Positions 25,901-49,876 of a DNA stretch of 64,000 nucleotides are shown in pieces (the stretch's first letter is position 1; every line of letters begins with the position of its first letter). The notes beneath the pieces were generated by a model. The model saw nothing but the letters and a program-made list of their open reading frames with translations. It did no database searches and was not told where the DNA came from. This DNA is from Fimbriiglobus sp. (GTDB lineage: Bacteria; Planctomycetota; Planctomycetia; Gemmatales; Gemmataceae), in assembly GCA_043787415.1 (NCBI GenBank), contig JAYVUZ010000240.1, positions 1,028 to 65,027 of the forward strand, in the 5' to 3' direction. The translations under genes were made by a program, and so were the position numbers.

Positions 25901-26913
25901 ACTGGGGCGAGGACGCGGCCGAGGACGGGCCGCTGGCCACCGCCTTGCGACAAGCCGCCGACTCGTTCCACTCGCTGTGGGTGGACCACAGCGGCGGGCT
26001 TCGCCTGAGCGCCCTGGAAGGGGTGCTGGACGCCGACGACTGGGGCGAGGTGCGGGACTTCGTCAAGGGCTACGGCGGCGACCTGTTCAGCGTGCGGTTC
26101 CTCACCTTGTCGAACGTCCGCGGCATCCTGGGGCAGGGGGTGGGCAACTGGCTGGACAAGCAGGTCCTGGAGGCCGACGACCCGCGGCCGAAGCTGGTGG
26201 AGGCGTGGGAAGGCGGTAAGCTCGATCGGACGAAGACGGCCCGGCTGTTCGAGGTGGTGCTGCAATCGCTGGTCGAGCACTACGACGAGTACCGCGATTA
26301 CAACACGACGACGACGCTCAGCGACTACGGCGAGAACCTGTACACCCTGCTCGACTTCCTGCGGCTGAAGGTGCAGTACGACCGCTACGCCTGGCGGCTG
26401 CGGCCGCTGGTGCTGGCCCACGACGGGCTGTGCCGGCAGGGGTTCGACCGCCTGGCGGAGAAGTGGCGGGAGTTCATCGCTAACAAGACAGGCAAGCTGG
26501 CCAACGAGCTGCTGGCGGAACTGGACAAGCGGGAGGTCGAACACGCCGTCAAGCTCCGCACCATCCGCGACCGGCTGGAGGAGCGGTTCATCCAGCCGCT
26601 GCGGATGGACATGGCGGCGGCCCGAGTGGCCCGGGCGGCGACCGCCGCGGCCGACGGCCAGCCGGAGGACAATCCATCCTTCGAGGGGCTGCTGGCCGCC
26701 ATCCGGCCGTTGGCCGACCACCCGAGCGGGGTCGGGCTGGACGTGCCGGCGTGGCTACGGCGGGTCGAGGACGAGTTGCGCAAAGTGAAGGCGGCGTCGG
26801 CCGACGGGGACGCCGAACCGGCCGAGGCGTACCCGTTCCCCGAGGCCGTGCCGCTCGACTTCGACCAGCTCAAGCGGCAGCTCGCCGAGTGGGACAAGCC
26901 GCTGGGGGAGTGA
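22990..26913 (+). CDS. Large hypothetical protein (1307 aa), predicted mostly helical, with an internal poly-acidic tract
   Basis: Single uninterrupted ORF with protein-like composition. DRDEDEEEDDDDEDD tract near aa 660-675. No catalytic or binding motif recognised. The start could instead be ATG at 23023. Confidence 0.8.
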   Translation: MLYGSRQPRTAMDALFPDLTRRFDGAKLVGYLNFSDGRPDPKFRAGVADIWAALLAAGDPTPWQTLPRWLTARADELQAGGAAAYADVTQAKDVIAGGLVELPPLYRRHHADLLAHQPDDALFAPFFLVRCAEATLAARGTGKPLRTALAGLNDFVGYRPIALLESRPQTDFYPHEKVAPVPLYFRGVGAAPGKYADVVRPTLELLAATNPDRLAAASFDLTRMDELAMDPRAVDHFHPVNKRPSVLFGEWDPHRIDNQGYYRRFVLRQPTLDALLKWAGDGGRWFEAAAALCGTILMGAGVSGSGPTDHDSSVTLSGLVQKIARYRDDFYKHLLAESRGPDGDRLRDEAARLKQPFAGVRQYLNATIAAERALHLQERRLALLFASMGYPAAARERAGRIPAPAARFATEVRLRQTEAGQAVLAGKLADARRLLGEAEDLLHRGINCGALIDPWNILGYQGLFPIFPGRDDTVRDPRAEDLILTVGRQFDVYAQGLAAAAAGPHKPAEAGYREGLSELAGWWDKYATPAVSDLPKVQGQERADAADHVAKALALWQTGGASDPAFWRTHRDGFQTPAAFAQVIDALLGRNDHRAALALLVTWLSEADRVPLQDPSATFVRLAFRWLRAVMSGDLAADERRALVKRFFELLEANADDRWSVPDLGLGSDRDEDEEEDDDDEDDTFSSAYEGMTFQDSADDGEEGSVAEGGPAQQAGEFPLDGDSDRAEDSLRFLAAVARLWRTAARPDLWAADPAAVGEWLRAARSNLSELRHLTERLHAIEIPEPTSGLEGVMEYDRRRSLKGHLLDQTVQTAVETAAAARALAAAVPRSAELPGPRAQLSGPTIDLPPWEPAAVRLERAIATADAAAARKVLPGFIQAFRHEPLLVSPPADGGPPGPAVRAQSALQMVESLLARLPRLGLLRETYQLTRLARVMERNDPPDGKRVSSFDQLFRTGVTGVVDALLVAGRDWGEDAAEDGPLATALRQAADSFHSLWVDHSGGLRLSALEGVLDADDWGEVRDFVKGYGGDLFSVRFLTLSNVRGILGQGVGNWLDKQVLEADDPRPKLVEAWEGGKLDRTKTARLFEVVLQSLVEHYDEYRDYNTTTTLSDYGENLYTLLDFLRLKVQYDRYAWRLRPLVLAHDGLCRQGFDRLAEKWREFIANKTGKLANELLAELDKREVEHAVKLRTIRDRLEERFIQPLRMDMAAARVARAATAAADGQPEDNPSFEGLLAAIRPLADHPSGVGLDVPAWLRRVEDELRKVKAASADGDAEPAEAYPFPEAVPLDFDQLKRQLAEWDKPLGE

Positions 26914-27771: not shown

Positions 27772-30483
27772 TTGGCCGACGTCACCCTCCCCCCGAACTT
27801 CCCGTCGGCGGCCGACGACGCCCGTAACGCCCCGCTCGACATCGTGGACGAGCTGAGGGACAGCTACCTGACTTACGCCCAGTCGGTGATGGTCAGCCGG
27901 GCGTTGCCGGACGTCCGCGACGGCCTGAAGCCGTCCCAACGGCGCATCCTCGTGGCCATGCGTGACCTCGGGCTGAACCCGACCAGTGCCACGTCGAAGT
28001 GCGCCGGCATCATCGGCGAGACGATGAAGCGGTATCACCCGCACGGCGATTCCAGCATCTATGACACGCTGGTACGGCTCGCCCAAGATTGGGTGATGCG
28101 ACAGCGGCTGATCCACGGCCAAGGGAACTTTGGGAGCATCGCCGGGTTGCCCCCCGCCGCCCACCGTTACACCGAAGCCCGGCTCACCCCCGCCGCCGCC
28201 GAGCTGCTCGAAGACCTGGACGCCGAGACGGTCGATTTCATCGACAACTACGACGGCAAATATCGTGAGCCGCTCGTACTCCCAGGCAAATTTCCGAACT
28301 TACTGGTCAACGGGTCGGACGGCATCGCCGTCGGCATGGCCACGGACATCCCCCCACACAACCTCCGAGAGGTGTGTGCCGGCCTGATGAAACTGATCGA
28401 CGAGCCGGACGCCACCCTGCACGAGCTGATGGAGCTGATCCCCGGGCCGGACTTCCCGACCGGCGGCATCGTCATGGGCCGGCACGGCATCGCCCGCGGC
28501 TACCTCGGCGAGCGGTCCCGCATGACCCTGCGGGCGCGGGCCGAGGTGGTGGAGGAGGGCAAGAGCCAGCACGTCCTGATCCGCGAGGTGCCGTACCAGG
28601 TCACGCGGAACAAGTTGATGGCGGACATCGCCGAGGCGGCCAAGGACGGGGGGAAGGACAGCCCGGCTCGGATCGCCGGGATTTCGGCCGTGACGGACGA
28701 GTCCAGCGCCCGCACCGGCGAGCCGGTCCGCATCGTGGTCGAGCTGAAGCGGGGCGTGGACGCCCACATGGTGCTCAACCAGCTCTACCAGTACACCCCG
28801 CTCCAGAAGACGGTCAGCGTCGGGATGCTAGCCCTGGTGGACGGCCGGCCGCAGTTCCTGACGCTCAAGGAGATGATGCAGAAGTACCTGGACCACCGGG
28901 TCCAGGTCATCCGCCGGCGGACCAGCTACTACCTCCGCGAGGCCAAGAAGCGGGGCCACACCCTCGAAGGCCAGCTCATTGCGATTTCCTCTCTGGACGA
29001 GGTGATCGAGATTTGCCGGCGGTCGCCCAGCCGGGCCGAGGCCAAGGAGCGGCTCCAGGGGATGGCCGTCGCCCCGGCGGTGATGGAGCGGGCCATCGGC
29101 CAGTTGGCGTTCGCCGCCCTCACGAGCGAACTCGGCGCGGTGGACGCCTACCGCATGACCGAGGCCCAGGCCGAGGCGGTGGTGCGGATGCAGCTCGGCC
29201 AGCTCGCCGCCCTGGAGAGCGACGCCATCCTCAAGGAGTACACCACACTCCGCGGCGAGATCCGCTCCTACGAGGCCCTGCTGGCCGACGACGGCCAGGT
29301 GAACGACATCATCCGGGCCGACCTCCAGGAGATGGCCGCCAAGTACGGGTCGGACCGGAAGACGGAAATCACGGACGACGGCGGCGACGTGGACCTGGAA
29401 GACCTGATTTCCGACGAGCCGTGCGTGGTGACCATCAGCCACCAGGGGTTCGTCAAGCGGATGCCGGTGGACACCTACCGGGTGCAGGGCCGGGGCGGGA
29501 AGGGGGTCCGCGGCGGGCTGAAGGAGGACGACTTCGTCGAGCACTTCTTCACGGCGACGACCAAGAGCTACCTGCTGATTTTCACCGACAAGGGGCAGTG
29601 CTACTGGCTCAAGGTGTACCGGGTGCCGTCGGCCAACCGGGACTCGGCCGGCCGGTCCGTCGCCAACGTATTGTCCCTGAAGGCCGACGAGAAGATCGCC
29701 GGGGTCATCCCGGTCCGGCAGTTCGAGGACGGCGTGTTCCTGCTCATGGCCACCCGCCAGGGGCTGGTCAAGAAGACCTCGCTCATGGAGTACAGCCGGC
29801 CGCGACAGGGGGGCATCATCGGCATCAACCTGGAAGACGGTGACGCGCTGATTGATGTCTGTCTGACACGGCCTGGCGACGAGGTGGTGCTGTCCACCCG
29901 CACCGGCATGGCCATCCGGTTCAGCGAGGCCGACGCCCGGGCGATGGGCCGGGGGGCGACCGGGGTGTGGGGCATCAAGATGAAGGCCGGGGCCGACGAA
30001 CTGGTGGGCATGGTGGTCGCCGACGCCGAGGGCATGTTGCTGACGGTGTGCGAGAACGGGTACGGCAAGCGGACCCCGTTCGGGCCGAACGAGCCGGCGG
30101 TCGCCGATGAGGTGGTGGACGACGAGGCCGCCGAAAGTCCGCCCGCGGCCGAGGCCGGGGAGGACGCCGAGCCGGCCGAGCGCGGGTCGATGCGGTACCG
30201 CCGGCAGCGGCGGGGCGGGAAGGGCGTCCGGGACATCCGCACCAGCGAGCGGAACGGCCCGGTGGTCGGGGTGGTGGACGTGCGGGAGGGCGACGAGGTC
30301 ATGCTCATCACGACCGGCGGCATGGTGACGCGGAGCCGGGTGGACGCCGTCCGCGTGACCGGCCGCAACGCCCAGGGGGTGCGGGTGATGAACCTGAAAC
30401 CGGGCGACAAGGTGGCCACCCTCGCCAAGGTGGCCCCGGGCACGGGGGCGGACGAGTCCACGGCCGTCACACCGCAGGAGTGA
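27772..30483 (+). CDS. gyrA: DNA gyrase subunit A
   Basis: [37 protein letters not shown], active-site [10 protein letters not shown], beta-pinwheel C-terminal domain. TTG start is preceded by GGAG. Confidence 0.97.
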
Positions 30484-30487
30484 GTCG

Positions 30488-31489
30488 ATGCGGGTGCTCA
30501 TCACCGGCGGGTACGGGTTCATCGGGGCGTGGATCGCCCGCAGCCTGCTGGCCCGCGGGGCGGCGGTCGTCAGCTACGACCTCCGCGAGGACGCCCGTCG
30601 GCTGCGGCTCGTCCTGAGTGACAGCGAGGTGTCACAAGTCGCCTTCGCCCCCGGCGACGTGACCGACACCGCCGCCCTGACGGCCGCCATCCGACGGCAC
30701 GGAGCCACCCACGTCATCCATCTGGCGGGTCTACAGGTGCCGACATGTCGGGCCGACCCGGTCCTCGGGGCCACGGTCAACGTGGTCGGCACGCTCAGCG
30801 TGTTTGAAGCCGCTCGCGCAACCGGCGTCCAGCGGGTGGTGTACGCCAGCACGGCGGCGGTGTTCGGCCCGCCGGCCGCCTACCCGCCGGGATCGCAGCC
30901 GGACGACGCACCGTTGCTGCCGGCCACACACTACGGCGTGTTCAAGGTGTGCAACGAGGGGAACGCCCGGGTGTACGCCCAGGACCACGGGCTGACCAGC
31001 GTCGGCCTGCGGCCGTGGGCGGTGTACGGCGTCGGCCGCGACCTGGGCATGACCAGTGAACCCACCAAAGCCGTCAAGGCGGCGGTCCTCGGCCGCCCAT
31101 TCGCCGTCAGCTTCGGCGGGGTGATGGACTTCCAGTACGTGTGGGACGTGGCCGAGGCATTCGTGCTGGCCTGCGAGCGGCCGTTCACCGGGGCCGGGGC
31201 GTTCAACCTCCGCGGAGCGGTGGCGTCGCTGGACGAGTTCCGGCGGACCCTGGTGCGGGTGCTGCCGGCGGCCGAGAACCTGGTGACGGTCGGCACGTCC
31301 CAGATCGGCATCGCCTACGACTTGGCCGACGACGGCGTCACGGCCGCGCTCGGGGCGTTGCCAAAGACGAGCCTGGAAGACGGCATCCGGGACACGGTCG
31401 AGCGGTTCCGAGCGCTGAACGCCGAGGGCCGGCTGGACGCGAGTGAGTTGGATACTGCCCTACCGCCGCCGGTTGCGGACGAGGTGTAA
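30488..31489 (+). CDS. NAD-dependent epimerase/dehydratase
   Basis: ITGGYGFIGAW Rossmann motif and YxxxK (YGVFK). Starts 4 nt after gyrA. Confidence 0.9.
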   Translation: MRVLITGGYGFIGAWIARSLLARGAAVVSYDLREDARRLRLVLSDSEVSQVAFAPGDVTDTAALTAAIRRHGATHVIHLAGLQVPTCRADPVLGATVNVVGTLSVFEAARATGVQRVVYASTAAVFGPPAAYPPGSQPDDAPLLPATHYGVFKVCNEGNARVYAQDHGLTSVGLRPWAVYGVGRDLGMTSEPTKAVKAAVLGRPFAVSFGGVMDFQYVWDVAEAFVLACERPFTGAGAFNLRGAVASLDEFRRTLVRVLPAAENLVTVGTSQIGIAYDLADDGVTAALGALPKTSLEDGIRDTVERFRALNAEGRLDASELDTALPPPVADEV

Positions 31490-31494
31490 CCAAC

Positions 31495-31523
31495 GTCCGC
31501 CCGCGCTCGACGCACGGGCGGAC
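31495..31523. terminator. 9-bp-stem hairpin between convergent genes
   Basis: gtccgcccg - 11 nt - cgggcggac, between the stops at 31489 (+) and 31530 (-). Confidence 0.45.
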
Positions 31524-31529
31524 AGGGGG

Positions 31530-32162
31530 TCATTTCAGCTCGACCGACCAGTACGCGGCGTCCAGGAACGACTGCCACGACTGGTACTTTCGCTGCGACA
31601 GCTTCAGGTTCAGCACCGGGCTGCGCTTCGGCTTCTCCGGCTTGCGGGTCAGCGCCATGTTCGCCTGCCGCGGGGTCCGCCCGCCCTTCCGCACGTTGCA
31701 GTCCACGCAGGCACAGACGATGTTCTCCCAGGTGGCCAGCCCGCCCTGGCTCCGCGGGATGACGTGGTCCAGCGACAGCTCGCTGGTCACGAACTTCTTG
31801 CCGCAGTACTGGCACTGATTGTTGTCCCGGGCGAACAGGTTCCGCCGGTTGAACTTGACCGTCTGCCGGGGCACCTTGTCGTACCCGACCAGCCGGATCA
31901 CCCGGGGGGCCTGAATCTCCGCCGTCGGCGTCCGCACCCAGTCGTCGTCCTCCTGACGGAAGTGGGCTGCCCGGTACGCGCTCAGCTCGGCCCACGACGC
32001 GAAGTCGTAAGTGGCGTAGGTGCCGTCCTCCTGGGACACCACTTCGGCCAGGTCTTTGCACAACAGGCCGAACGCCCGCCGGACGCTGATCACATGGACG
32101 GCCATGTACATCTTGTTGAGCACGAGGACACTGGCGTCCAGCGGCGTGTAGCCGGCGGTCAT
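31530..32162 (-). CDS. HNH endonuclease
   Basis: CQYCGKK...LSLDHVIPRSQGG...WENIVCACVDCNVRKG (HNH with a Cys4 zinc site). ATG at 32162 is preferred over the upstream start at 32258. Confidence 0.85.
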   Translation of the reverse strand: MTAGYTPLDASVLVLNKMYMAVHVISVRRAFGLLCKDLAEVVSQEDGTYATYDFASWAELSAYRAAHFRQEDDDWVRTPTAEIQAPRVIRLVGYDKVPRQTVKFNRRNLFARDNNQCQYCGKKFVTSELSLDHVIPRSQGGLATWENIVCACVDCNVRKGGRTPRQANMALTRKPEKPKRSPVLNLKLSQRKYQSWQSFLDAAYWSVELK

Positions 32163-32337
32163 GGGGCGGACCTCGTTCTCGGTGGTTAGGCGGCGGGCCG
32201 GACCGGCGACCCGCGTCGTCGGGAGAGGAGGGGAGGAGTGGGGGTGAGGTTCAGTCACGCTGGTATTCTACCCCACCCGCCAAACCGGACGCAAGCAACG
32301 GCCGTGGGGAAGGGGCCGACTTCACACGCCGCTCACG

Positions 32338-33441
32338 TCACGGTCGCAGCACCAGCCGACGCAGCTGATCGGCGGCCCGGGCCACCCGCTCCGCGCATCC
32401 GGTTAGCCGGCAGGTGGCGACCGTGACCGTCACCCCGGCCGGGGTGTCGTAGCGGATGCGCGTGAACCGCCGGCCGGGGTAGATGAGGCCGGCCGCCCGC
32501 ACGCCGAGAGCGGCGGCGTAGCCGAGCGCCTGGTGTAAGTCGTCCGGGTGCGGGCCGGCCGCCAGTAGCGGCTTCCACTTCACGTCCCAGACGGCGGCCG
32601 GCCGGCTGTGGGCGTCTAGCACGAGGAGATCGGGGCGCATCTCAACCGTGGGCCGACCTGCCGGGCCGCGGAGGAGCAACGGATGTTGGGGCACGACGGA
32701 CCGCCCCGCCAGCGGGGTTGCGAGCAAGTGTTCAAGATGCGATTCGAACAGCCGTTCCAAATTCAGTAACAGCCCGTGATCCAGCGCCACCTCGATCTGT
32801 CGGCACCACGCGAGTAACGGTCGGTAGCCGGCGAGCCGTGGGTCGCTGAAAGCGGCCGGCGGCGTCGGGTGCGGTCGGACCCCGGTGAATCCGTCCGCCG
32901 CTGCCTGGAGGGCGGTGCGGGTGGTCGGGTCGAGCGGGCCGGCGAGCAACCGGCCCGCAACAGCCAGCGGCCAGCCGTTCCACGGCTGATCGGCCGTGAA
33001 CTCGTCCACCGCCTGGGTGAACCCGACGGCCGATCGCTGGAACGTCGCGGCGAAGTCGATGCGCCCACGCACGAAAGCCGCGTGTTCTGGCCGCTCGGCG
33101 TACCCGCGGGCCAAGCCGGCCGCCGACCGCTCGGCCAGGAGGTCCGCCAGTTGCCCGGCCAGTGCGGACCGGAGTTCGCGGCCCAGATCGGCGTCGCCGA
33201 TTCGACCAACCGCGAGCAGCCGCGCGGCGGCCTCCCAGCCGAGTTTCGGTGTCACTTCCCAGACGCAGTTGGGCGTTGCGAAGGTGCCGACCCAGCCGCG
33301 GGCGGTCAGCCGGTAGCGACCCCGGTCGGCGGTCGGCAGCACCTCGACGACGTGCGGCCAGTCGGTTGACAGCGCGGCCGCATCAGCCCGCGGTAGCCGG
33401 CGGACTTCGGTCCGCCGCTCGACCAGCCGGATTCGCCTCAT
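32338..33441 (-). CDS. McrC-like PD-(D/E)xK nuclease subunit
   Basis: MRPDLLVLD-x9-VWDVKWK ... DLHQALGY ... GLIYP parallels E. coli McrC TDITI..IVDAKYY..NLYQLMNY..LLIYP. 367 aa. Confidence 0.78.
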   Translation of the reverse strand: MRRIRLVERRTEVRRLPRADAAALSTDWPHVVEVLPTADRGRYRLTARGWVGTFATPNCVWEVTPKLGWEAAARLLAVGRIGDADLGRELRSALAGQLADLLAERSAAGLARGYAERPEHAAFVRGRIDFAATFQRSAVGFTQAVDEFTADQPWNGWPLAVAGRLLAGPLDPTTRTALQAAADGFTGVRPHPTPPAAFSDPRLAGYRPLLAWCRQIEVALDHGLLLNLERLFESHLEHLLATPLAGRSVVPQHPLLLRGPAGRPTVEMRPDLLVLDAHSRPAAVWDVKWKPLLAAGPHPDDLHQALGYAAALGVRAAGLIYPGRRFTRIRYDTPAGVTVTVATCRLTGCAERVARAADQLRRLVLRP

Positions 33442-33532
33442 GGGGTGTCAGACGGGGCAGGGGGGAGCGCCGGCAGCCTGCGGGCGGCCGGGTCGAACAG
33501 CCGGAACACCACGTCGCCCTTTCTGTCGCTGG

Positions 33533-34345
33533 TCAGCGGTGAGCCACCGTCGTCTCCACCAATGCCAGTTCACCCCGTAGCCCTGCTTGGAAAAACCGCT
33601 CGCCGGCCTCCCGCTCGAACGCCGCTTGAAGCCCGGCCAGTTCGGCGTCCGGCTGGCACAAGCCGAGTACCCGTTCGGCCGACCGGGCCACGACCTGGGT
33701 GCAGGCGATCCGCACCAGTTGGGCGATCAGGGTCGGCTCGTCGCCGATCGATCGGGCCGTGTTCAGCCCGGCCAGCAGGTGCCCGACCGCCGCAGACGGG
33801 TCGCCGTCGAGGGCGGCAACCGCCGCCGCAATGCTCAGCACACTCTCGACGGCCCGCCGCTCATGGATTGAGTTCAGGTTGGCCGGAAGGGCATTCAACC
33901 CCGGCACCACGGTCGCGCTGCCGCCAACGGGCTGGTCCCAGAGAGTTTCGGCGGCGCGACGAGTTTCAGCGGTCTGTTTCAGCACCGCCCGCAGGCGGAC
34001 AGCTTCCTCAGCCACCGGCTGACGGTTGGACGGTCCGTCGTAGTGCCAGTGGTCGTCGTTCAGCGTGCGGTCCCAGCCCTCGGGTAGGAGCTTCGAGGCG
34101 GCAGCGACGGTGTCGGCCGAATTCGTCGGCAGCTTGCTGAGGGTGTCGTTCCGCGTGGCGATCAGATCGGGAAGTCGCCAGTTCGGGTTCTCGGCGTCGA
34201 GTTCGGTGGCTACGGCAGCAAGCTCCCGCTGACCCTGCCAGCGGGTGGTCAGATACCATGCCGGTGGGACTGACACGGCCCCCAAAAAGAAGGCGACCAC
34301 CCACGGCCAAAGCCGGCGGCGAGAGGACGTTACCTCGTGCATCAT
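33533..34345 (-). CDS. Membrane-anchored helical protein of unknown function, lying between the McrB-like and McrC-like genes
   Basis: The ATGATG start embeds the upstream TGA (34340-34345). One TM (LWPWVVAFFLGAVSVPPAWYL), then a helical domain of about 230 aa (…IGDEPTLIAQLVRIA…). No family name recalled. Confidence 0.6.
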   Translation of the reverse strand: MMHEVTSSRRRLWPWVVAFFLGAVSVPPAWYLTTRWQGQRELAAVATELDAENPNWRLPDLIATRNDTLSKLPTNSADTVAAASKLLPEGWDRTLNDDHWHYDGPSNRQPVAEEAVRLRAVLKQTAETRRAAETLWDQPVGGSATVVPGLNALPANLNSIHERRAVESVLSIAAAVAALDGDPSAAVGHLLAGLNTARSIGDEPTLIAQLVRIACTQVVARSAERVLGLCQPDAELAGLQAAFEREAGERFFQAGLRGELALVETTVAHR

Positions 34346-37011
34346 CGGGCGACCTCCGGGGCCGACGGGCGGCGCTTGCGAGTGGCGGCCGCGTCGGGGG
34401 CGAACGGGGCCAGCCGGTCGAGCCGGTCCGGGCGGCCGGCGAACAGGTCGGCCAACGCCGGCCGCACCTCGTGTTTCCAAGTGGTTCGTACCAGGTCACG
34501 GGTCATTTGCTCCCGCAGCCAGTAGGCGTGGCCGATCTGCCGGTCCGGGCCGAAGTCGCGGGCGAGTTGGCCGTTCACCTGCTCGAACCAGTTGACCAGG
34601 TGGCCGCCGAATTCCGGGTCCGGGTCGGCCGGCGGGTGGCGGGTGAGCCAGCGGCTGAGCACCGCCGCGTCCGGCGGCATGTCGATGAAGGCGAACCGCC
34701 GGCGGGTGGCCTGGTCGAGCGGCGTCACCGAGCGGTCGGCCGGGTTGAGGGTGGCGATCAGCATGAGGTTCGGCGGCAGCCGGAACGGCGCCTTCGAATA
34801 CGGCAGCGTCACCGCCTGGTCGCGGTACTCCATCAGGTACAGCAGCTCGCCGAACACCCGCGGCAGGTTGCCGCGGTTCAGCTCGTCCACCAGCAACACG
34901 TGCTGCTCGGAGGGGTGCCGCGTCGCCCGTTCGGCGAACCGCACCAGCACCCCCGGCTCGACCGGGTATGCTACCGCACCACCGTCCGATTTGGGACGGA
35001 TGCCTTCGACGAACTCCTCGTAGCTGTACGCCGGGTGGAACTGCACTGTCGCCAGTCGCTCGGGTCGGTCGCCGGTCAGATGCCGGGCGAGGCAGCGGGC
35101 GACGTGCGTCTTGCCGGTGCCGGGTACGCCTTGCAGCACCAGTTGCCGCTTGGCCACGAGCAAGCCGATGGCCCGGTCTAGCCACGGCTCGGCGAGCAAG
35201 GTCGCCTCGCGGAAGGCGGTGCGGTCGAACCCGCCGCCGGGCCGGCCGGCCCGCTTCAGCAGCAGCGGCGTCGGGTCGTCCAGCACCGCGGCGGCGAACA
35301 GCGGCAGCAGCCGGTCGAAGGTGAGGATGGCGTCGCCGACCAGCTCCTCGGTGCGGGCGACCGCCTCGGCCGGGCCGAGCCGCACCCCGGCGACGAGGTC
35401 TTTGTTGGCCGCCCACTCGCGGAGGTCGGCGGCCGACCCGAGGATCACCCCGGGGGCGTCCACCCCGCCGGCAAACCGCAAGCTCGCCCCGCCGGTCGCC
35501 TGCAACGCCTCGAACAGTAGTGGGCCGTGGGCCTGGACGTTGGCCCGGAACCGTCGGCCGTCGGCCCGGGCGGTGCGGGACAGGTGGAAGCCGACGGCCA
35601 ACCCGTCGGCCGCCAGCCGTGCGAACAACTGGGCGGCCGTCTTCTTGGTGGCGTGCCGCTGGTAGAAGGTGGCCCACAGCACCGGCTGGTACGGCCCGCT
35701 CTGGCCGTAGTCGTTCTTGCACACGCTGCTCAGTGCCCGCCCGGGCTTGGCCGCGGTCTCCAGTTCCCAGCCGTATTCGCCGCCCAGCACCGGCCGGACG
35801 TACCGCTCGGCCAGGGCGTCGCACAACTCGACCAGCGGCGAGCGGACGGCGTAGCGGTAGCGGTCGCGGGCGGCGGCCATCCACTCGGCCGAGTTGTTGT
35901 CGGCCAGCTCGTCGAGAAAGTGGAAGGTGTCCCGGGCGAAGCCGCCGAACCGGCCGCGGGCAGCATGGGGGGAACGGCGGCCGAGTCGGCCGAGCAGGTC
36001 GCCGACCTCCAGGGGGTGGATGCGGAACCGTTCGCGCAGCACGTCGGCCAGGCCGACGAGCAGGCGGTAGCGACCGAGTGGCGACAGCCCCGGTACGATG
36101 GCGTCGTCAACGGCCTCTTGGCCGGCCGCAACTGTCGTGGACCATGTCGGGAACAGTTTGGGGTGACGCAGGTGCAGCACGCCGGCGGCGAGCCAGAGGC
36201 CGTCACCCGCCAACCAACCGGGGGCCAGTACGTCCAGGTCGTCGGGGTTTCTGACACCTTCGAGCCGCTCGAACCAGTCCGCGGCCGACGGCGGCACGGC
36301 CGGAGACTCCCCACATGCGGCGGCAACCTCGCCGAGCAGTTCGGCGGGGCTGGTCGGAGGCGGTGGGGCAATACGGCGCTTCACCGGCACGTCCGCCCGC
36401 AGCACCCGTACCTCAGCTTTCAGCCGACCATCGCGGCTGTTCAGCCCCGGTTCGGCCGGCCCCGGCTCGCGGCCGGCGGCCCGGCTGACCGCCCGCAGGA
36501 AACGGTCGATCCGGCCAGCGGGCAGGCCCGGCCGGGCTTCCAGTAGCACCTCGTACACGCGGGTGACGGCGGCGAACGATGCGGCCAAGTGATCGCCACC
36601 GCGGTCGACGGCCGACCCAAACCGGACACAGCCGGCCAGCACCTCGGGGCACCACAACGGCAGGCGGGACGGGTCAAGCGCGTGGGCAGCGGCAGCCCAG
36701 AACCGCCAGCCGATGCCCGGGACGAAGTACGGCCCAGTGGCGGACGCACAGCGGGCCAGCCGGTCGGCGAGTGGCCCGTCGCCGCGGTGCAGGTGGGCCA
36801 GGCCGTGCCGTACCCACTCGGCGTTCATGGCCGCAGCCGGGTGCCAGCTACCGAGGGCAGTGACCGCGGCAGACAGATCAGACCGCCAGATGTCAGCAGG
36901 GGTGGCGTCGAGATCGAGCGAAAAGAAGCCGAGGACAGGTTCAGTGACCGCACCGTCGTCGGCGAAGCCGTCGAGCGCGGCGAGCAAGTCGGCGGTACGG
37001 GGTGCGGGCAT
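34342..37011 (-). CDS. McrB-family AAA+ (GTPase-type) protein with a DUF2461-like domain and a duplicated helical N-terminal region
   Basis: GVPGTGKT, LLVDELNRGN, IATLNPADRS, RRRFAFI, QIGHAYW (McrB/AAA_5 set). Central FGGFARDTFHFLDELADNNSAEWMAAARDRYRYAVRSPL matches the DUF2461/TIGR02453 N-terminal signature. ATG at 37011 is preferred over TTG at 37128, but the start is uncertain. Confidence 0.82.
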   Translation of the reverse strand: MPAPRTADLLAALDGFADDGAVTEPVLGFFSLDLDATPADIWRSDLSAAVTALGSWHPAAAMNAEWVRHGLAHLHRGDGPLADRLARCASATGPYFVPGIGWRFWAAAAHALDPSRLPLWCPEVLAGCVRFGSAVDRGGDHLAASFAAVTRVYEVLLEARPGLPAGRIDRFLRAVSRAAGREPGPAEPGLNSRDGRLKAEVRVLRADVPVKRRIAPPPPTSPAELLGEVAAACGESPAVPPSAADWFERLEGVRNPDDLDVLAPGWLAGDGLWLAAGVLHLRHPKLFPTWSTTVAAGQEAVDDAIVPGLSPLGRYRLLVGLADVLRERFRIHPLEVGDLLGRLGRRSPHAARGRFGGFARDTFHFLDELADNNSAEWMAAARDRYRYAVRSPLVELCDALAERYVRPVLGGEYGWELETAAKPGRALSSVCKNDYGQSGPYQPVLWATFYQRHATKKTAAQLFARLAADGLAVGFHLSRTARADGRRFRANVQAHGPLLFEALQATGGASLRFAGGVDAPGVILGSAADLREWAANKDLVAGVRLGPAEAVARTEELVGDAILTFDRLLPLFAAAVLDDPTPLLLKRAGRPGGGFDRTAFREATLLAEPWLDRAIGLLVAKRQLVLQGVPGTGKTHVARCLARHLTGDRPERLATVQFHPAYSYEEFVEGIRPKSDGGAVAYPVEPGVLVRFAERATRHPSEQHVLLVDELNRGNLPRVFGELLYLMEYRDQAVTLPYSKAPFRLPPNLMLIATLNPADRSVTPLDQATRRRFAFIDMPPDAAVLSRWLTRHPPADPDPEFGGHLVNWFEQVNGQLARDFGPDRQIGHAYWLREQMTRDLVRTTWKHEVRPALADLFAGRPDRLDRLAPFAPDAAATRKRRPSAPEVAR

Positions 37012-37351
37012 CGGCCGTGGGATCCAGACCCGGGGTAGCCGATTGTAATGCCGTCGCGGGTGGCAGGGAAGCGAGGTCGTCGGCCAGAAATGAAGCGTCC
37101 CGGCGGCCACCTCCGCGGCGTCGCCCAATCACCGCAGTAGCAACCGCCGGGACAGCTTCAGACTACCGCACCCCGTCGCACGACACAAACCCCAACCGGC
37201 CCGAATCCGGACGGCCGCCCGGCCCGGCGTCGGGAAAGCCGACGGCGGCCGCGGCGGATCGCCCGGCCCGCGGACCGCACATAATTACGATTATCGGACG
37301 CAGACGCTGCACAATTTTCTAGCCGTTCCAGTCATCTCGTCACGCCTTCGG

Positions 37352-38311
37352 TCAGTCGGCAGCCATGCCGCCCATCCGGCGGAACTTGGCGTAGCGGGCG
37401 TCCAGAAGCCGGTCCGTCGGCACGCCCGACAACTCGCGGAGGTGCCGGATGAGGTGGGATTTTAGCGCGGCGGTGGCGCCCCGCGGGTTGCGGTGGGCGC
37501 CGCCCACCGGCTCCGGAATCACCTCGTCGATGACCCCGGACCGTAAACAGTCCGTCGCCGTCAGCCGCAGGGCGCCGGCGGCCTTCGGCTTCGTCTCCTC
37601 AGTGGCCTGCTTCCACAAGATGCCGGCGCACCCCTCCGGGCTGATGACCGAGTAGTAGGCGTGCTGCATCATGCTCACCCGGTCGCCGACGCCGATGCCG
37701 AGGGCGCCACCCGACCCCCCTTCCCCGATGACGACGCACACCACCGGCGTCGCCAGCCGGGACATCTCCAGGATGCTGGTGGCGATGAGTTGCGACTGGC
37801 CTCGTTCCTCGGCCCCGATGCCGGGGTATGCCCCGGGGGTGTCGATCAGGCACACCACCGGCAGGCGGAACTTGGCCGCGAGTTGCATCTTGGCCAACGC
37901 CTTGCGGTAGCCCTCCGGATGAGCACAGCCGTAGAAGCACTGCTGCCGCTCGGCCAGCGTCCGGCCCTTCTGGTGGCCGACCAGCATGAGCTTGAAGTCA
38001 CCCAGCCGGGCGAACCCGGTGCGGACGGCCCGGTCGTCGCCGAACGCCCGGTCGCCGTGCAGTTCGGTGAACTCGTCGAACAGGTTGGCGACGTAGTCGG
38101 CCGTCTGCGGGCGTTTCGGGTGCCGGCTGACCAGAACCGTTTCCCACGGGGTTAGCTCGCCGTACCGGGCCTTCAGCCGGGCCACCAGCTCCCGCCGCAG
38201 CCTGCGGACCTCCGGCCCGGGCTGGTCCGAGCTGTCCTCGGCCTCGACCCGGGCGAGGTCCAGCTCCAACTCGTGAATCTCGTCCTCGAACGCGAGCGGG
38301 GCAACGGGCAT
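37352..38311 (-). CDS. accA: Acetyl-CoA carboxylase carboxyltransferase subunit alpha
   Basis: VVCLIDTPGAYPGIGAEERGQ, VIGEGGSGGALG. 319 aa. Confidence 0.95.
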   Translation of the reverse strand: MPVAPLAFEDEIHELELDLARVEAEDSSDQPGPEVRRLRRELVARLKARYGELTPWETVLVSRHPKRPQTADYVANLFDEFTELHGDRAFGDDRAVRTGFARLGDFKLMLVGHQKGRTLAERQQCFYGCAHPEGYRKALAKMQLAAKFRLPVVCLIDTPGAYPGIGAEERGQSQLIATSILEMSRLATPVVCVVIGEGGSGGALGIGVGDRVSMMQHAYYSVISPEGCAGILWKQATEETKPKAAGALRLTATDCLRSGVIDEVIPEPVGGAHRNPRGATAALKSHLIRHLRELSGVPTDRLLDARYAKFRRMGGMAAD

Positions 38312-38351
38312 GGCTGTCGATAGTGGTGGGAGCGGGGCGAACCGACTGGTC

Positions 38352-39254
38352 TCACATCTGCTCGTCTTCGACTTCTTGCACCGACTTGAACACTTTGCAC
38401 TTCTTCAGCTCCATCAGCACCTCGTGGAAGCCGGGCGGGCGGTCGTCCGGCTTCTTGGCCAGCATTTTCAGCACGAGGTTGCCGAACTCGTCGGTCACGT
38501 CCGGGTTGTAGGAGGACGGGTGCGACGGCCTCTCCTTCAGGTGCTTGACCATGATCTCGGTCAGGCTGGTGCCGCGGAACGGCGGCCGGGCGGTGGTCTT
38601 CTCGGTGCCGGTGACCAGCTCGTACAAGGCGCAGCCGAAGGCGTACACGTCGCTCCGGGCGTCCAGCCTGAGGTTCTGAATCTGCTCCGGCGACATGTAG
38701 CTGGGCGTTCCCTGCGGCTTCTTCGGGCCGCCGCCGAACAGGCTGCCGATCAGCCCGCGTTTGATCGGCTGGGCGATGGCAAAGTCAATGATCTTCGTCT
38801 TGCCGGAGGCGTTACACAGAATGTTGTCCGGCTTGATGTCTTTGTGAATGAACCCGCTGGCCGTCATGTACGCCAGCCCGGTCGCCGCCTGCTTGAAAAT
38901 ACCTTTGGCTTTCTCCCTGAGGAATTGTTTGTCGGCCGGCAGCCGGCTTTGCAGGCGGGTGCGGAGTGACCCGGCCGGGAAGTACTCCATGATGAAGTAC
39001 GGCGGGTTCGTCTTCGTAACTTTGGACACTTTCAGAATGTTGATGACGTTCTCGTGCCGCATCTTCAGCCCGACCTCGGCGTCGTTGAGCAGCTCGGCCA
39101 GGGCCACCTTGTCCTGCTTCAGTTCGGGCAGCAGCATCTTCATGGCGAAGTGCCGGCCGCTGCCCTCGACGCACTCGAACACGAGCGTCTTCTGGCCCAC
39201 CTGGAGGGTGGCCCGCAGCTTGTAGCCGTCGATGGTGTCCCCGACATCGGCCAT
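38352..39254 (-). CDS. Serine/threonine protein kinase, catalytic domain only (non-RD, DFA variant)
   Basis: HFAMKML (VAIK Lys), FIHKDIKPDNIL, IIDFAIA, PSYMSPEQ. ATG is preceded by AGGGGG. Locally lower GC. Confidence 0.9.
   Translation of the reverse strand: MADVGDTIDGYKLRATLQVGQKTLVFECVEGSGRHFAMKMLLPELKQDKVALAELLNDAEVGLKMRHENVINILKVSKVTKTNPPYFIMEYFPAGSLRTRLQSRLPADKQFLREKAKGIFKQAATGLAYMTASGFIHKDIKPDNILCNASGKTKIIDFAIAQPIKRGLIGSLFGGGPKKPQGTPSYMSPEQIQNLRLDARSDVYAFGCALYELVTGTEKTTARPPFRGTSLTEIMVKHLKERPSHPSSYNPDVTDEFGNLVLKMLAKKPDDRPPGFHEVLMELKKCKVFKSVQEVEDEQM

Positions 39255-43060: not shown

Positions 43061-49876
<6,816 letters not shown>

What the first reader, a model, noticed from the sequence alone, without database searches (positions are those of the whole stretch)
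31530..37128. Non-canonical McrBC-like islet: DUF2461-fused McrB AAA+ protein, an interposed membrane protein, a McrC nuclease and an HNH neighbour
Four minus-strand genes run from 37011 down to 31530. (i) 34342-37011: the C-terminal third carries the McrB/AAA_5 motif set, read directly from the translation. These are GVPGTGKT, LLVDELNRGN, IATLNPADRS (compare McrB MNTADRS), RRRFAFI and QIGHAYW. (ii) 32338-33441 has an intact PD-(D/E)xK core (MRPDLLVLD-x9-VWDVKWK) and DLHQALGY...GLIYP. This parallels the E. coli McrC C-terminus. (iii) In canonical mcrBC the two genes abut. Here a 270-aa gene with a single N-terminal TM helix sits between them. Its ATGATG start embeds the McrB-like TGA (34340-34345), and a 91-nt gap separates it from the McrC-like ATG. 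(iv) An HNH nuclease gene follows 175 nt further downstream on the same strand. The block lies between housekeeping genes (gyrA/epimerase on one side, accA on the other), as a small defence islet would. I do not recognise this gene arrangement as a described system.
Basis: partly seen in the sequence, partly recalled or inferred. Interest (0 to 1): 0.8.

Follow-up and report, generated by a model that had tools for sequence, protein, structure and literature searches.

The report
McrBC operon with membrane-protein insert
This is a planctomycete (Gemmataceae) version of the McrBC DNA-cutting defence system with an extra membrane-anchored protein gene between its two usual genes; that gene is broken by a deletion here, and the neighbouring HNH nuclease gene is a separate, highly conserved gene rather than part of the system.

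Summary
The four minus-strand genes and the quoted motifs are real. Gene A (34342-37011) is a McrB-type AAA+ GTPase with a DUF2461 domain. Gene C (32338-33441) is a McrC nuclease with an intact PD-(D/E)xK core. DUF2461-McrB plus McrC is a widespread, uncharacterised two-gene McrBC subtype found in several phyla. What is special to Gemmataceae is gene B. B belongs to a fold-orphan family of N-terminally anchored, probably periplasm-facing helical proteins. It sits in 0-5 tandem copies between mcrB and mcrC, often with overlapping stop and start codons. All five B-centred look-ups gave A-B(n)-C-HNH.

The window's B is defective. An out-of-frame internal deletion removed about 170 codons. The "91-nt gap" is the relic of B's 3' end, and its old stop codon overlaps the mcrC ATG.

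The HNH gene is not a component. It is 74-85% identical across the 80 best loci of at least 579 matches in species genomes, and most of those loci lack McrBC genes upstream. It carries its own conserved promoter-like element and leader. Complete A-B-C clusters also occur without it.

The cluster is an old, vertically inherited and frequently eroded locus, not a recent insertion. Verdict: a new variant of a known kind, of moderate interest. What B does is unknown.

The parts
34342..37011 (-). Gene A: McrB-like AAA+ GTPase, 889 aa, with a two-part N-terminal region
   Evidence: Pfam AAA_5, DUF2461 and McrB_lid. NCBIfam McrB 1.4e-36. Family profile against E. coli and T. gammatolerans McrB structures, 6e-61 and 2e-56. 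Walker A, Walker B, NxxD (N-P-A-D) and RRRF are invariant in 20 homologues.
35962..37011 (-). A residues 1-350: helical N-terminal region found in the long, Gemmataceae-type A proteins
   Evidence: AF2 model with mean pLDDT 83. Only weak, recurring Foldseek matches to HhH-GPD glycosylases (E 0.6-5, probability at most 0.75). The shorter distant homologues lack it; other long distant homologues carry N-terminal extensions that were not compared with it.
35242..35949 (-). A residues about 355-590: DUF2461-like alpha/beta domain, the presumed specificity or DNA-reading module
   Evidence: Pfam DUF2461 is partial in the window but full length in relatives. Foldseek matches the DUF1054 structures 2A8E and 3MQZ at probability 1.0, E 2e-3 and 5e-3.
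34345..35184 (-). A residues about 610-889: McrB AAA+ GTPase core and lid
33533..34345 (-). Gene B, disrupted allele: 270-aa product with the TM helix and the N-terminal half of the helical domain. Its ATG overlaps the stop of A (ATGA).
   Evidence: Matches B-family profile positions 14-274 of 485, E 1e-68. Aligns to the first 265 aa of the 484-aa orthologue. The protein stops right after the GLRGE(R>L)A motif. No Pfam, NCBIfam or PADLOC hit.
33438..33569 (-).
   Evidence: The translation is TGIGGDDGGSPLTSDRKGDVVFRLFDPAARRLPALPPAPSDTP*. It matches B profile positions 455-480, E 1.4e-7 for a single comparison. Orthologues have a B stop overlapping the C start.
32338..33441 (-). Gene C: McrC-like PD-(D/E)xK nuclease, 367 aa
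   Evidence: Pfam McrBC 8e-20. Family profile against McrC structures, 8e-36 and 2e-25. P270-D271, D286, K288 and K290 are invariant.
32163..32295 (-). Promoter-like element (TTGCGT-18-TAGAAT) and TGAACC leader of the HNH gene. This belongs to the neighbouring gene, not to the McrBC operon.
   Evidence: CTTGC-N17/18-TAnnAT plus YGAACC is conserved upstream of the HNH gene in loci with and without A/B/C. The strict consensus scan does not list it. No Rfam match.
31530..32162 (-). Gene D: stand-alone HNH endonuclease, 210 aa. It is a conserved neighbour and not a system component.
   Evidence: HNH_5 and HNH. Closest solved relatives are IscB/Cas9-type HNH domains and Gmet_0936. The best 80 loci of at least 579 matches in species genomes are 74-85% identical. 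Most of those loci lack A/B/C.

Best explanation
The locus is a chromosomal McrBC-type (Type IV-like), nucleotide-driven restriction module of the DUF2461-McrB/McrC subtype, in a form specific to Gemmataceae.

Inferred from homology to solved McrBC complexes: A assembles into a GTP-hydrolysing AAA+ ring. Its N-terminal DUF2461 domain, together with an extra helical region, is the DNA-reading part. C docks into the ring, stimulates hydrolysis and cuts DNA with its PD-(D/E)xK site.

Shown by comparison: in this lineage one to five tandem genes for a fold-orphan, N-terminally anchored helical protein (B) have been inserted between mcrB and mcrC, often with overlapping stop and start codons. By charge bias B faces the periplasm.

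B is an optional accessory whose role is not known. My best guess is that it tethers the nuclease to the cytoplasmic membrane, or modulates it there, through its short conserved Arg-rich cytoplasmic tail.

In this window B has been disrupted by an out-of-frame internal deletion. The organism is therefore left with an intact A and C and a truncated B, working at best as a plain McrBC pair. The downstream HNH gene is an independently transcribed, near-universally conserved Gemmataceae gene, and its adjacency reflects ancestral gene order.
For: McrB identity:
-, with invariant Walker A, Walker B, NxxD and Arg-finger motifs in 20 homologues.

McrC identity and catalytic residues:
-.

The subtype is widespread and normally has two genes:
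- Distant A homologues carry a full DUF2461 plus AAA_5 and are followed directly by McrC, never by B.
- Sources name homologues 'DUF2461 family protein' or 'McrB' in Acidobacteriota, Anaerolineae, Actinomycetota and Eisenbacteria.

B is linked to the pair:
- A-B(n)-C was found in 5 of 5 B-centred look-ups, including Frigoriglobus tundricola and Gemmata sp. SH-PL17.
- The same order appears in many HNH-centred and A-centred loci with different flanks.
- 4-nt overlaps occur at the B/C junction and, in the window, at the A/B junction.

Nature of B:
- AF2 model with pLDDT 91. No PDB fold match and no Pfam or NCBIfam hit.
- Net charge is +4.8 on the N-terminal side of the TM helix and +1.4 on the C-terminal side, over 41 homologues.

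B is broken in the window:
-. The same 270-aa product is found on contigs from three samples.

HNH is independent:
- It is 84% identical to the L004 orthologue, against 49%, 33% and 35% for A, B and C.
- 35 of 73 usable HNH loci have no A/B/C within at least 6 kb upstream, and 11 more have none in shorter flanks.
- A promoter-like element and leader are conserved regardless of the upstream genes.
- Complete A-B-C or A-C clusters lack HNH in L104, L108, L127, L146 and L148.
Against: - No activity was measured. GTPase activity, DNA binding and any dependence on DNA modification are inferences from homology.
- The function of DUF2461 is unknown. Its only structural relatives are uncharacterised DUF1054 proteins.
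- The cluster behaves as a vertically inherited chromosomal locus with no signs of mobility. This is not typical of a defence island.
- Parts survive alone: 18 intact-looking A genes have no B/C/D downstream, and some loci have only B or only C. The parts may therefore have separate roles, or the system may often be decaying.
- The B family is very large: 43,020 50%-identity clusters at E<=1e-3. It also occurs fused to ABC-2 permeases away from McrBC. B may therefore have an envelope function of its own.
- Any contact between B and A or C is pure inference.
- C of the window is the most divergent member of its family (Pfam 8e-20, against 1e-44 to 1e-53 for relatives).
Confidence: 0.65

Rival explanations
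1. This is the first reader's view: a four-gene defence system in which the HNH protein is a second nuclease acting with McrB, the membrane protein and McrC.
For: HNH lies immediately downstream on the same strand wherever the ancestral arrangement is kept. It also stays with A-B-C in several lineages whose outer flanks have changed: the window, L004/L010, L012, L021/L025 and L023. Two loci have A directly followed by HNH (L130 and L138).
Against: HNH is 74-85% identical across species in which A, B and C are 27-70% identical. It is present without any A/B/C in most species sampled. It has its own conserved promoter-like element and leader, whatever lies upstream. It is missing after complete clusters of another clade.
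Confidence: 0.08
2. The cluster is not a defence system. It is a lineage-specific chromosomal DNA-maintenance or envelope-linked function, for example processing of damaged or incoming DNA at the membrane. It uses an McrBC-type motor-nuclease and has been retained by vertical descent.
For: The chromosomal position is fixed, next to a Rad52/Rad22-family gene, a metallophosphoesterase and the conserved HNH gene. No compositional anomaly or mobile-element neighbours are seen in the window. No relatives occur on viral, phage or plasmid records. The N-terminal region of A shows weak resemblance to HhH-GPD glycosylases. B-family domains are fused to ABC-2 permeases.
Against: Presence is patchy, with repeated loss of single parts. 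B forms fast-evolving tandem arrays (27-55% identity, up to five copies), which looks like an arms-race locus. All characterised McrBC relatives are restriction enzymes, as described in papers PMC7680126 and PMC11090510. The HhH-GPD matches are not significant.
Confidence: 0.15
3. B is functionally unrelated to McrBC. The mcrB-mcrC interval is merely a tolerated landing site for a highly expanded planctomycete membrane-protein family.
For: The family is very large. Members occur outside McrBC as ABC-2 fusions. A-C pairs without B exist (L021, L025, L097, L099, L101, L125-L127). B-only loci exist (L031, L055, L067). The window tolerates a broken B.
Against: 5 of 5 look-ups of B homologues drawn from across the hit list (35-100% identity to the first query sequence) fall between A and C. 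The stop of B overlaps the start of C in several genomes. A subfamily of B carries a conserved cytoplasmic N-terminal peptide. Insertion inside a coupled two-gene operon, repeated across clades with 41-70% A identity, is hard to explain without selection.
Confidence: 0.12

Closest known systems
Canonical McrBC (E. coli K-12 EcoKMcrBC; Thermococcus gammatolerans McrBC)
   Same: The AAA+ GTPase has Walker A/B, the NxxD signature (N-P-A-D here), an Arg finger and a lid. The partner is a PD-(D/E)xK nuclease of the McrC family. Profile matches to the solved structures are 6e-61 for McrB and 2e-25 to 8e-36 for McrC.
   Different: The N-terminal reader is a DUF2461 domain plus a 350-aa helical region, not the DUF3578 or YTH-like domains. 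A scores far below NCBIfam's McrB equivalog cut-off (126 against 637 bits). One to five membrane-protein genes lie between mcrB and mcrC in this clade. Target specificity is unknown.
Two-gene DUF2461-McrB / McrC systems of other phyla (annotated 'DUF2461 family protein'; uncharacterised)
   Same: The domain architecture of A is the same, a full DUF2461 plus AAA_5 plus McrB_lid, with 31-37% identity over residues from about 250-355 to about 870. An McrC gene follows.
   Different: They have no B gene. McrC abuts or overlaps mcrB. The shorter members (537 aa) lack the 350-aa N-terminal helical region; longer ones (up to 984 aa) have N-terminal extensions that were not compared with it.
Three-gene non-canonical McrBC systems LlaI / BsuMI (R1 DNA-binding protein, R2 AAA+ motor, R3 nuclease)
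   Same: Both are McrBC-type systems with a third protein-coding gene in the operon (abstract of bioRxiv 10.64898/2026.08.31.748284).
   Different: There the third protein is a soluble, site-specific DNA-binding module that replaces the fused N-terminal domain. Here the reader domain is still fused to A, and the extra protein is membrane-anchored, fold-orphan and variable in copy number.
[quoted passage not shown] 2024, PMC11090510)
   Same: Both are McrBC relatives with a membrane or pilus connection. There the GTPase is fused to an FtsB-like TM/coiled-coil domain and is associated with signal-peptidase-type pilus assembly genes. The C-terminal module of B shows borderline GspG-pseudopilin likeness in one homologue.
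   Different: CoCoPALM GTPases belong to the NxD branch and carry coiled coils. A is NxxD, has no TM or coiled-coil fusion, and the membrane element is a separate protein. No homology between B and CoCoPALM parts was tested.
Stand-alone HNH endonucleases of the IscB/Cas9-HNH type (e.g. Gmet_0936, PDB 4H9D), for the neighbouring gene only
   Same: The HNH/CCCC zinc-finger core matches: TbaIscB HNH 2e-13, 4H9D 3e-9 and NCBIfam IscB 1e-14.
   Different: The 210-aa protein has its own 110-aa N-terminal region. It has no RuvC domain or guide-RNA context. It is conserved like a core gene in Gemmataceae.

Membership tests
McrB (AAA+ GTPase subunit of McrBC) | AAA+ core with Walker A, Walker B (DExNR), the NxxD signature and an arginine finger, homologous to solved McrB | tested here: met
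   GVPGTGKT, VDELNRGN, N-P-A-D-R-S and RRRF are invariant across 20 homologues. Pfam AAA_5 and McrB_lid. Profile against 6HZ4, 6e-61.
McrB (AAA+ GTPase subunit of McrBC) | Orthology with E. coli McrB (NCBIfam equivalog PRK11331, cut-off 637 bits) | tested here: not met
   126 bits, covering only the AAA+ part. A is a member of the McrB superfamily, not an EcoKMcrB equivalog.
McrB (AAA+ GTPase subunit of McrBC) | GTP-specific hydrolysis stimulated by McrC | not testable with these tools
   Biochemistry is required.
McrB (AAA+ GTPase subunit of McrBC) | N-terminal domain that binds (modified) DNA | tested here: inconclusive
   The N-terminal DUF2461 domain matches only the uncharacterised DUF1054 structures. 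The helical region matches HhH-GPD glycosylases weakly (E at least 0.6).
McrC (nuclease subunit) | McrC family fold with an N-terminal McrB-interacting part and a C-terminal PD-(D/E)xK catalytic core | tested here: met
   Pfam McrBC 8e-20. Profile against 6UT5_G 8e-36 and 6HZ4_M 2e-25. P-D, D-x-K-x-K and the DLHQ..Y motif are invariant.
McrBC operon | mcrB and mcrC adjacent, typically overlapping, in one operon | tested here: not met
   In the window B (813 nt) and its 3' relic separate them. Adjacency is kept in B-less relatives (L021, L025, L097, L099, L101) and in all distant DUF2461-McrB/McrC pairs.
McrBC (Type IV restriction) | Restriction of modified foreign DNA | not testable with these tools
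   No experiment. PADLOC carries no model that hits even canonical-type McrC, so its silence is uninformative.
Type II secretion pseudopilin GspG-like domain (for the C-terminal module of B) | Match to Pfam T2SSG or NCBIfam GspG above the curated cut-off | tested here: inconclusive
   Only the duplicated module of P0298 hits: T2SSG 20.4 bits (cut-off 21) and GspG 20.8 bits (cut-off 88.85). 0 of 41 family members hit. No Foldseek or PDB profile hit. This module is deleted in the window's B.
HNH endonuclease (neighbouring gene D) | HNH/ββα-metal core with a Cys4 zinc site | tested here: met
   Pfam HNH_5 1.5e-16 and HNH 6.8e-15. CxxC...DH...N...CxxCN is readable in the sequence. PDB hits to IscB/Cas9 HNH domains.
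Component of the McrBC-like system (gene D) | Co-occurrence in both directions and co-transcription with A/B/C | tested here: not met
   D occurs without A/B/C in at least 35 of 73 usable loci. A-(B)-C occurs without D in at least 5 loci. D has its own conserved promoter-like element and leader. Transcription itself was not measured.

The most novel reading that the evidence does not exclude
B proteins could be envelope-facing sensors or adaptors that tie an McrBC motor-nuclease to the cytoplasmic membrane. Restriction would then be coupled to DNA entry (phage injection or DNA uptake). The tandem, fast-diverging B paralogues would provide a variable recognition surface. That would be a membrane-coupled Type IV restriction system not described before. 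The window itself carries only a broken copy, so any test would have to use relatives such as Frigoriglobus tundricola or Gemmata sp. SH-PL17.
Probability: 0.2. Interest if true: 0.75.

Novelty: new variant of a known kind. Interest (0 to 1): 0.5.

Why it matters
McrBC is the textbook modification-dependent restriction system. All characterised forms are soluble cytoplasmic complexes.

This lineage-wide variant differs in one striking way. One to five rapidly diverging, membrane-anchored and probably periplasm-facing proteins are encoded inside the mcrB-mcrC operon. This raises a testable possibility: restriction may be localised or triggered at the envelope.

The finding also gives a first genomic context for three things: a very large, fold-orphan planctomycete protein family; DUF2461 as a likely DNA-reading module of a widespread McrB subtype; and a highly conserved stand-alone IscB-type HNH gene.

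For this particular window the practical message is more sober. The accessory gene is a deletion remnant, and the HNH gene is a bystander.

Tried and rejected
- PADLOC, NCBIfam and Pfam on B, including permissive thresholds and all 41 family members: nothing usable.
- Foldseek of a high-confidence B model against the PDB: no match, best E 0.49. A PDB profile search for B also found nothing.
- My recollection that the C-terminal motif of B resembles GspG pseudopilins got only borderline support from one homologue. I therefore report it as inconclusive.
- phmmer of the window's C alone against the PDB found nothing. A family profile was needed.
- The consensus promoter scan found no sigma-70-like site in the region. 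The HNH promoter-like element is supported only by conservation.
- Rfam: no family in 30000-39000.
- B and the N-terminal part of A on viral contigs, phage records and plasmid records: none.
- Literature: no paper held mentions both DUF2461 and McrB. The main text of the McrBC census paper does not mention Planctomycetes, TIGR02453 or DUF1054.
- Whether close relatives also carry the truncated B could not be settled. L171 and L172 end inside B, and L170 is a frameshift-ridden low-coverage assembly.
- dN/dS of the retained half of B (0.39, against 0.29 for A) does not date the disruption.
- The HhH-GPD likeness of A residues 1-350 was rejected as evidence because it is not significant.

Full report
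**Observation**

The source contig, an ENA metagenome assembly, carries the same four gene calls of 889, 270, 367 and 210 aa. They sit between accA on one side and an epimerase and gyrA on the other. The quoted motifs are all in the translation. Three junctions are correct as described:
- the stop of A overlaps the start of B (ATGA);
- 91 nt separate the B stop from the C ATG;
- 175 nt separate the C stop from the HNH ATG at 32162.

Two small corrections apply. The spacer in the nuclease motif is 7 residues, not 9. The longer TTG and GTG ORF starts (37128 and 32258) are not supported by homologues. GC content across the block (0.69-0.73) is the same as in the flanks.

**What A and C are**

A hits Pfam AAA_5 (2e-21), the start of DUF2461 (1.7e-10) and McrB_lid. 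It also hits NCBIfam's McrB model over its AAA+ part (1.4e-36), far below the equivalog cut-off. A profile of 20 homologues matches the solved E. coli and T. gammatolerans McrB AAA+ domains at 6e-61 and 2e-56. Walker A, Walker B, the N-P-A-D form of the NxxD signature and the RRRF arginine finger are invariant. NxxD is the canonical McrB class in the census of Bell et al. (PMC11090510).

C hits Pfam McrBC (8e-20). A 15-sequence profile matches the solved McrC proteins at 8e-36 and 2e-25. P-D, D-x-K-x-K and DLHQxLxY are invariant. A and C are therefore a McrB/McrC pair with catalytic motifs intact.

**The N-terminal 600 residues of A**

An AlphaFold2 model (mean pLDDT 83) shows two parts.
- An alpha/beta domain at about 355-590. 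It matches the two DUF1054 structural-genomics entries 2A8E and 3MQZ at probability 1.0. Pfam recognises the same domain as a full-length DUF2461 in relatives.
- A helical region at 1-350. It has only weak, non-significant matches to HhH-GPD glycosylases.

DUF2461-McrB fusions are common. The last protein search returned thousands of hits. Many carry DUF2461, AAA_5 and McrB_lid, and sources name them 'DUF2461 family protein' or 'McrB' in Acidobacteriota, Anaerolineae, Actinomycetota and Eisenbacteria. In metagenome loci these distant relatives (31-37% identity) are followed directly by McrC. The fusion is therefore a widespread but uncharacterised McrB subtype, and DUF2461 occupies the position of the specificity domain.

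**The interposed gene B**

Full-length homologues are about 480-500 aa. The window's B aligns only to their N-terminal 265 residues.

The family has no Pfam, NCBIfam or PADLOC match. It has a confident AlphaFold2 model (pLDDT 91): a long N-terminal helix, an all-alpha solenoid and a small beta module. That model has no significant fold match in the PDB. Across 41 homologues the net charge is +4.8 before the hydrophobic helix and +1.4 after it. By the positive-inside rule this places the bulk outside the cytoplasm; this is an inference. One subfamily has a conserved cytoplasmic peptide, F-x-P-P-x-P-R-S-R-F-R-x-L-R-K.

All five look-ups that started from B homologues landed in the order A-B(n)-C-HNH. 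These included the cultured Frigoriglobus tundricola (three B copies) and Gemmata sp. SH-PL17 (two copies). Loci fetched through the HNH gene or through A show 0 to 5 tandem B copies. The stop of the last B often overlaps the mcrC start.

B is thus a conserved, clade-specific insertion into the operon, and it is optional. A-C pairs without B exist (L021, L025, L097, L099, L101, L125-L127), and distant DUF2461-McrB/McrC pairs never have it.

The family is very large: 43,020 50%-identity clusters at E<=1e-3 and 5,523 at <=1e-30. Some members are fused to ABC-2 permeases in a context without McrBC. An independent envelope role therefore cannot be excluded. The C-terminal module looks pseudopilin-like to me. 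Only one homologue gives borderline GspG/T2SSG scores, so I leave that open.

**B is broken in this window**

The in-frame product matches B profile positions 14-274 of 485 (E 1e-68) and stops 11 codons after the GLRGE motif. Now read the following DNA in the frame that ends with TGA 33440-33438, which overlaps the mcrC ATG. It encodes TGIGGDDGGSPLTSDRKGDVVFRLFDPAARRLPALPPAPSDTP*. This is the conserved C-terminal end of the family (profile positions 455-480, E 1.4e-7 for a single comparison).

An out-of-frame internal deletion of roughly 170 codons therefore removed the second half of the solenoid and most of the beta module. The same 270-aa product is on contigs from three different samples, so this is not an assembly error. 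Whether the truncated protein still does anything cannot be told. dN/dS of the retained half against a 69%-identical relative is 0.39, compared with 0.29 for A.

**The HNH gene**

It is a 210-aa stand-alone HNH. Its closest solved relatives are the HNH domains of IscB/Cas9 proteins and Gmet_0936. Several results argue against it being a component.
- It is 84% identical between the window and L004, where A, B and C are 49%, 33% and 35% identical.
- A scan of one genome per species found at least 579 relatives, and the best 80 are all 74-85% identical.
- Of 73 loci with usable upstream sequence, 35 have no A/B/C within at least 6 kb. Eleven more have none in shorter flanks, and 27 have at least one of the three.
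- In the opposite direction, complete A-B-C or A-C clusters of another clade (L104, L108, L127, L146, L148) are not followed by HNH.
- Upstream of the HNH start, a CTTGC-N17/18-TAnnAT element and a YGAACC leader motif are conserved whether or not McrBC genes precede it.

The gene is therefore an independent, core-like unit. Its adjacency reflects the ancestral order PGM - Rad52-like - MFS - metallophosphoesterase - A - B(n) - C - HNH - HtrA-like proteases. In the window's lineage both outer flanks have changed; the accA-A junction is shared with a 69%-identical relative.

**State of the system across genomes**

The cluster is eroded in many genomes. Eighteen long-type A genes have no B/C/D downstream. 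Some loci retain only B, only C, or A followed directly by HNH. No relatives of B or of the N-terminal part of A occur on viral contigs, phage records or plasmid records. This fits a vertically inherited, dispensable chromosomal locus that is repeatedly lost, rather than a mobile island.

**Mechanism**

Shown:
- membership of A and C in the McrB and McrC families, with intact catalytic motifs;
- conserved operon-like linkage of B;
- disruption of B here;
- independence of HNH.

Inferred from the solved McrBC complexes (PMC7680126, PMC6624300): A forms a GTP-driven ring that reads DNA through its N-terminal region, and C docks, stimulates hydrolysis and cleaves.

Speculative: B tethers the complex to the membrane, or modulates it there, via its short Arg-rich tail, possibly linking restriction to DNA entry.

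**Comparison with what is known**

The closest characterised relative is canonical McrBC. The closest uncharacterised relative is the two-gene DUF2461-McrB/McrC subtype. Two other systems share single features but differ in the protein concerned and in the GTPase branch:
- the three-gene LlaI/BsuMI systems, which add a soluble DNA-binding R1;
- the CoCoPALM systems, which are membrane- and pilus-linked and belong to the NxD branch.

I found no description of the A-B(n)-C layout in the literature held.

**Verdict**

This is a new variant of a known kind. Interest is moderate (0.5). The lineage-wide variant is intriguing and testable in cultured Gemmataceae, but this window holds a degraded copy, and the role of B is unknown.

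Noticed in passing
window 32163-32295 (minus strand); also L007-L086 upstream of the HNH gene: Upstream of the HNH gene there is a conserved promoter-like element (CTTGC-N17/18-TAnnAT). It is followed by a leader motif YGAACC-N11-13-GCGCSTC and a variable GC-rich hairpin about 80-100 nt before the start codon. The leader motif was found in 75 of the 80 HNH loci; the promoter-like element was seen in the roughly 30 loci aligned. There is no Rfam match. It could be a regulatory site or a structured leader.
   Followed up: partly
P0331, P0360, P0381, P0308 (from the representative search); context in JGI sample 3300047160: Complete B-family modules, including their own TM helix, occur as C-terminal fusions to ABC-2 type permeases. 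The one context examined (P0331) contains no McrBC genes.
   Followed up: partly
L109:5451-12749 and L137:8132-15423: Arrays of five tandem B paralogues follow the McrB-like gene directly. The paralogues are only about 30-37% identical to the query set.
   Followed up: partly
L095, L102, L105, L106, L110, L112, L122, L129, L142, L149, L158 and others: Eighteen long-type DUF2461-McrB genes are intact-looking ORFs of 900-1000 aa with no McrC, B or HNH gene downstream. In several the ancestral upstream genes (MFS and metallophosphoesterase) are still present.
   Followed up: partly
window 43061-49876 (+): A 2271-aa ORF with duplicated UvrA domains (UvrA_inter and UvrA_DNA-bind twice, plus ABC_tran), which is more than twice the length of a usual UvrA.
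   Followed up: no
window 22990-26913 (+): A 1307-aa ORF (called as 1296 aa on the source contig) with no Pfam family on record. It lies between the Leu/Phe-tRNA-protein transferase gene and a formyl-transferase gene.
   Followed up: no
L088:11988-13364: In Gemmata sp. SH-PL17 a gene with a faint N6_N4_Mtase hit lies just downstream of the HNH gene, next to the A-B-B-C cluster. No methyltransferase is near the cluster in the window.
   Followed up: no
L170 (ENA ERZ26165376, 3x long-read contig): This is the closest relative of the window's A (91% identity). The same accA-side genes precede A, but its B region is spread over several reading frames. This is probably low-coverage assembly error, so it could not be used to date the B deletion.
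   Followed up: partly
L091:16213-16848: In one metagenome locus the HNH gene lies inverted downstream of A-B-B and is flanked by two McrC fragments, which indicates a local rearrangement through mcrC.
   Followed up: no
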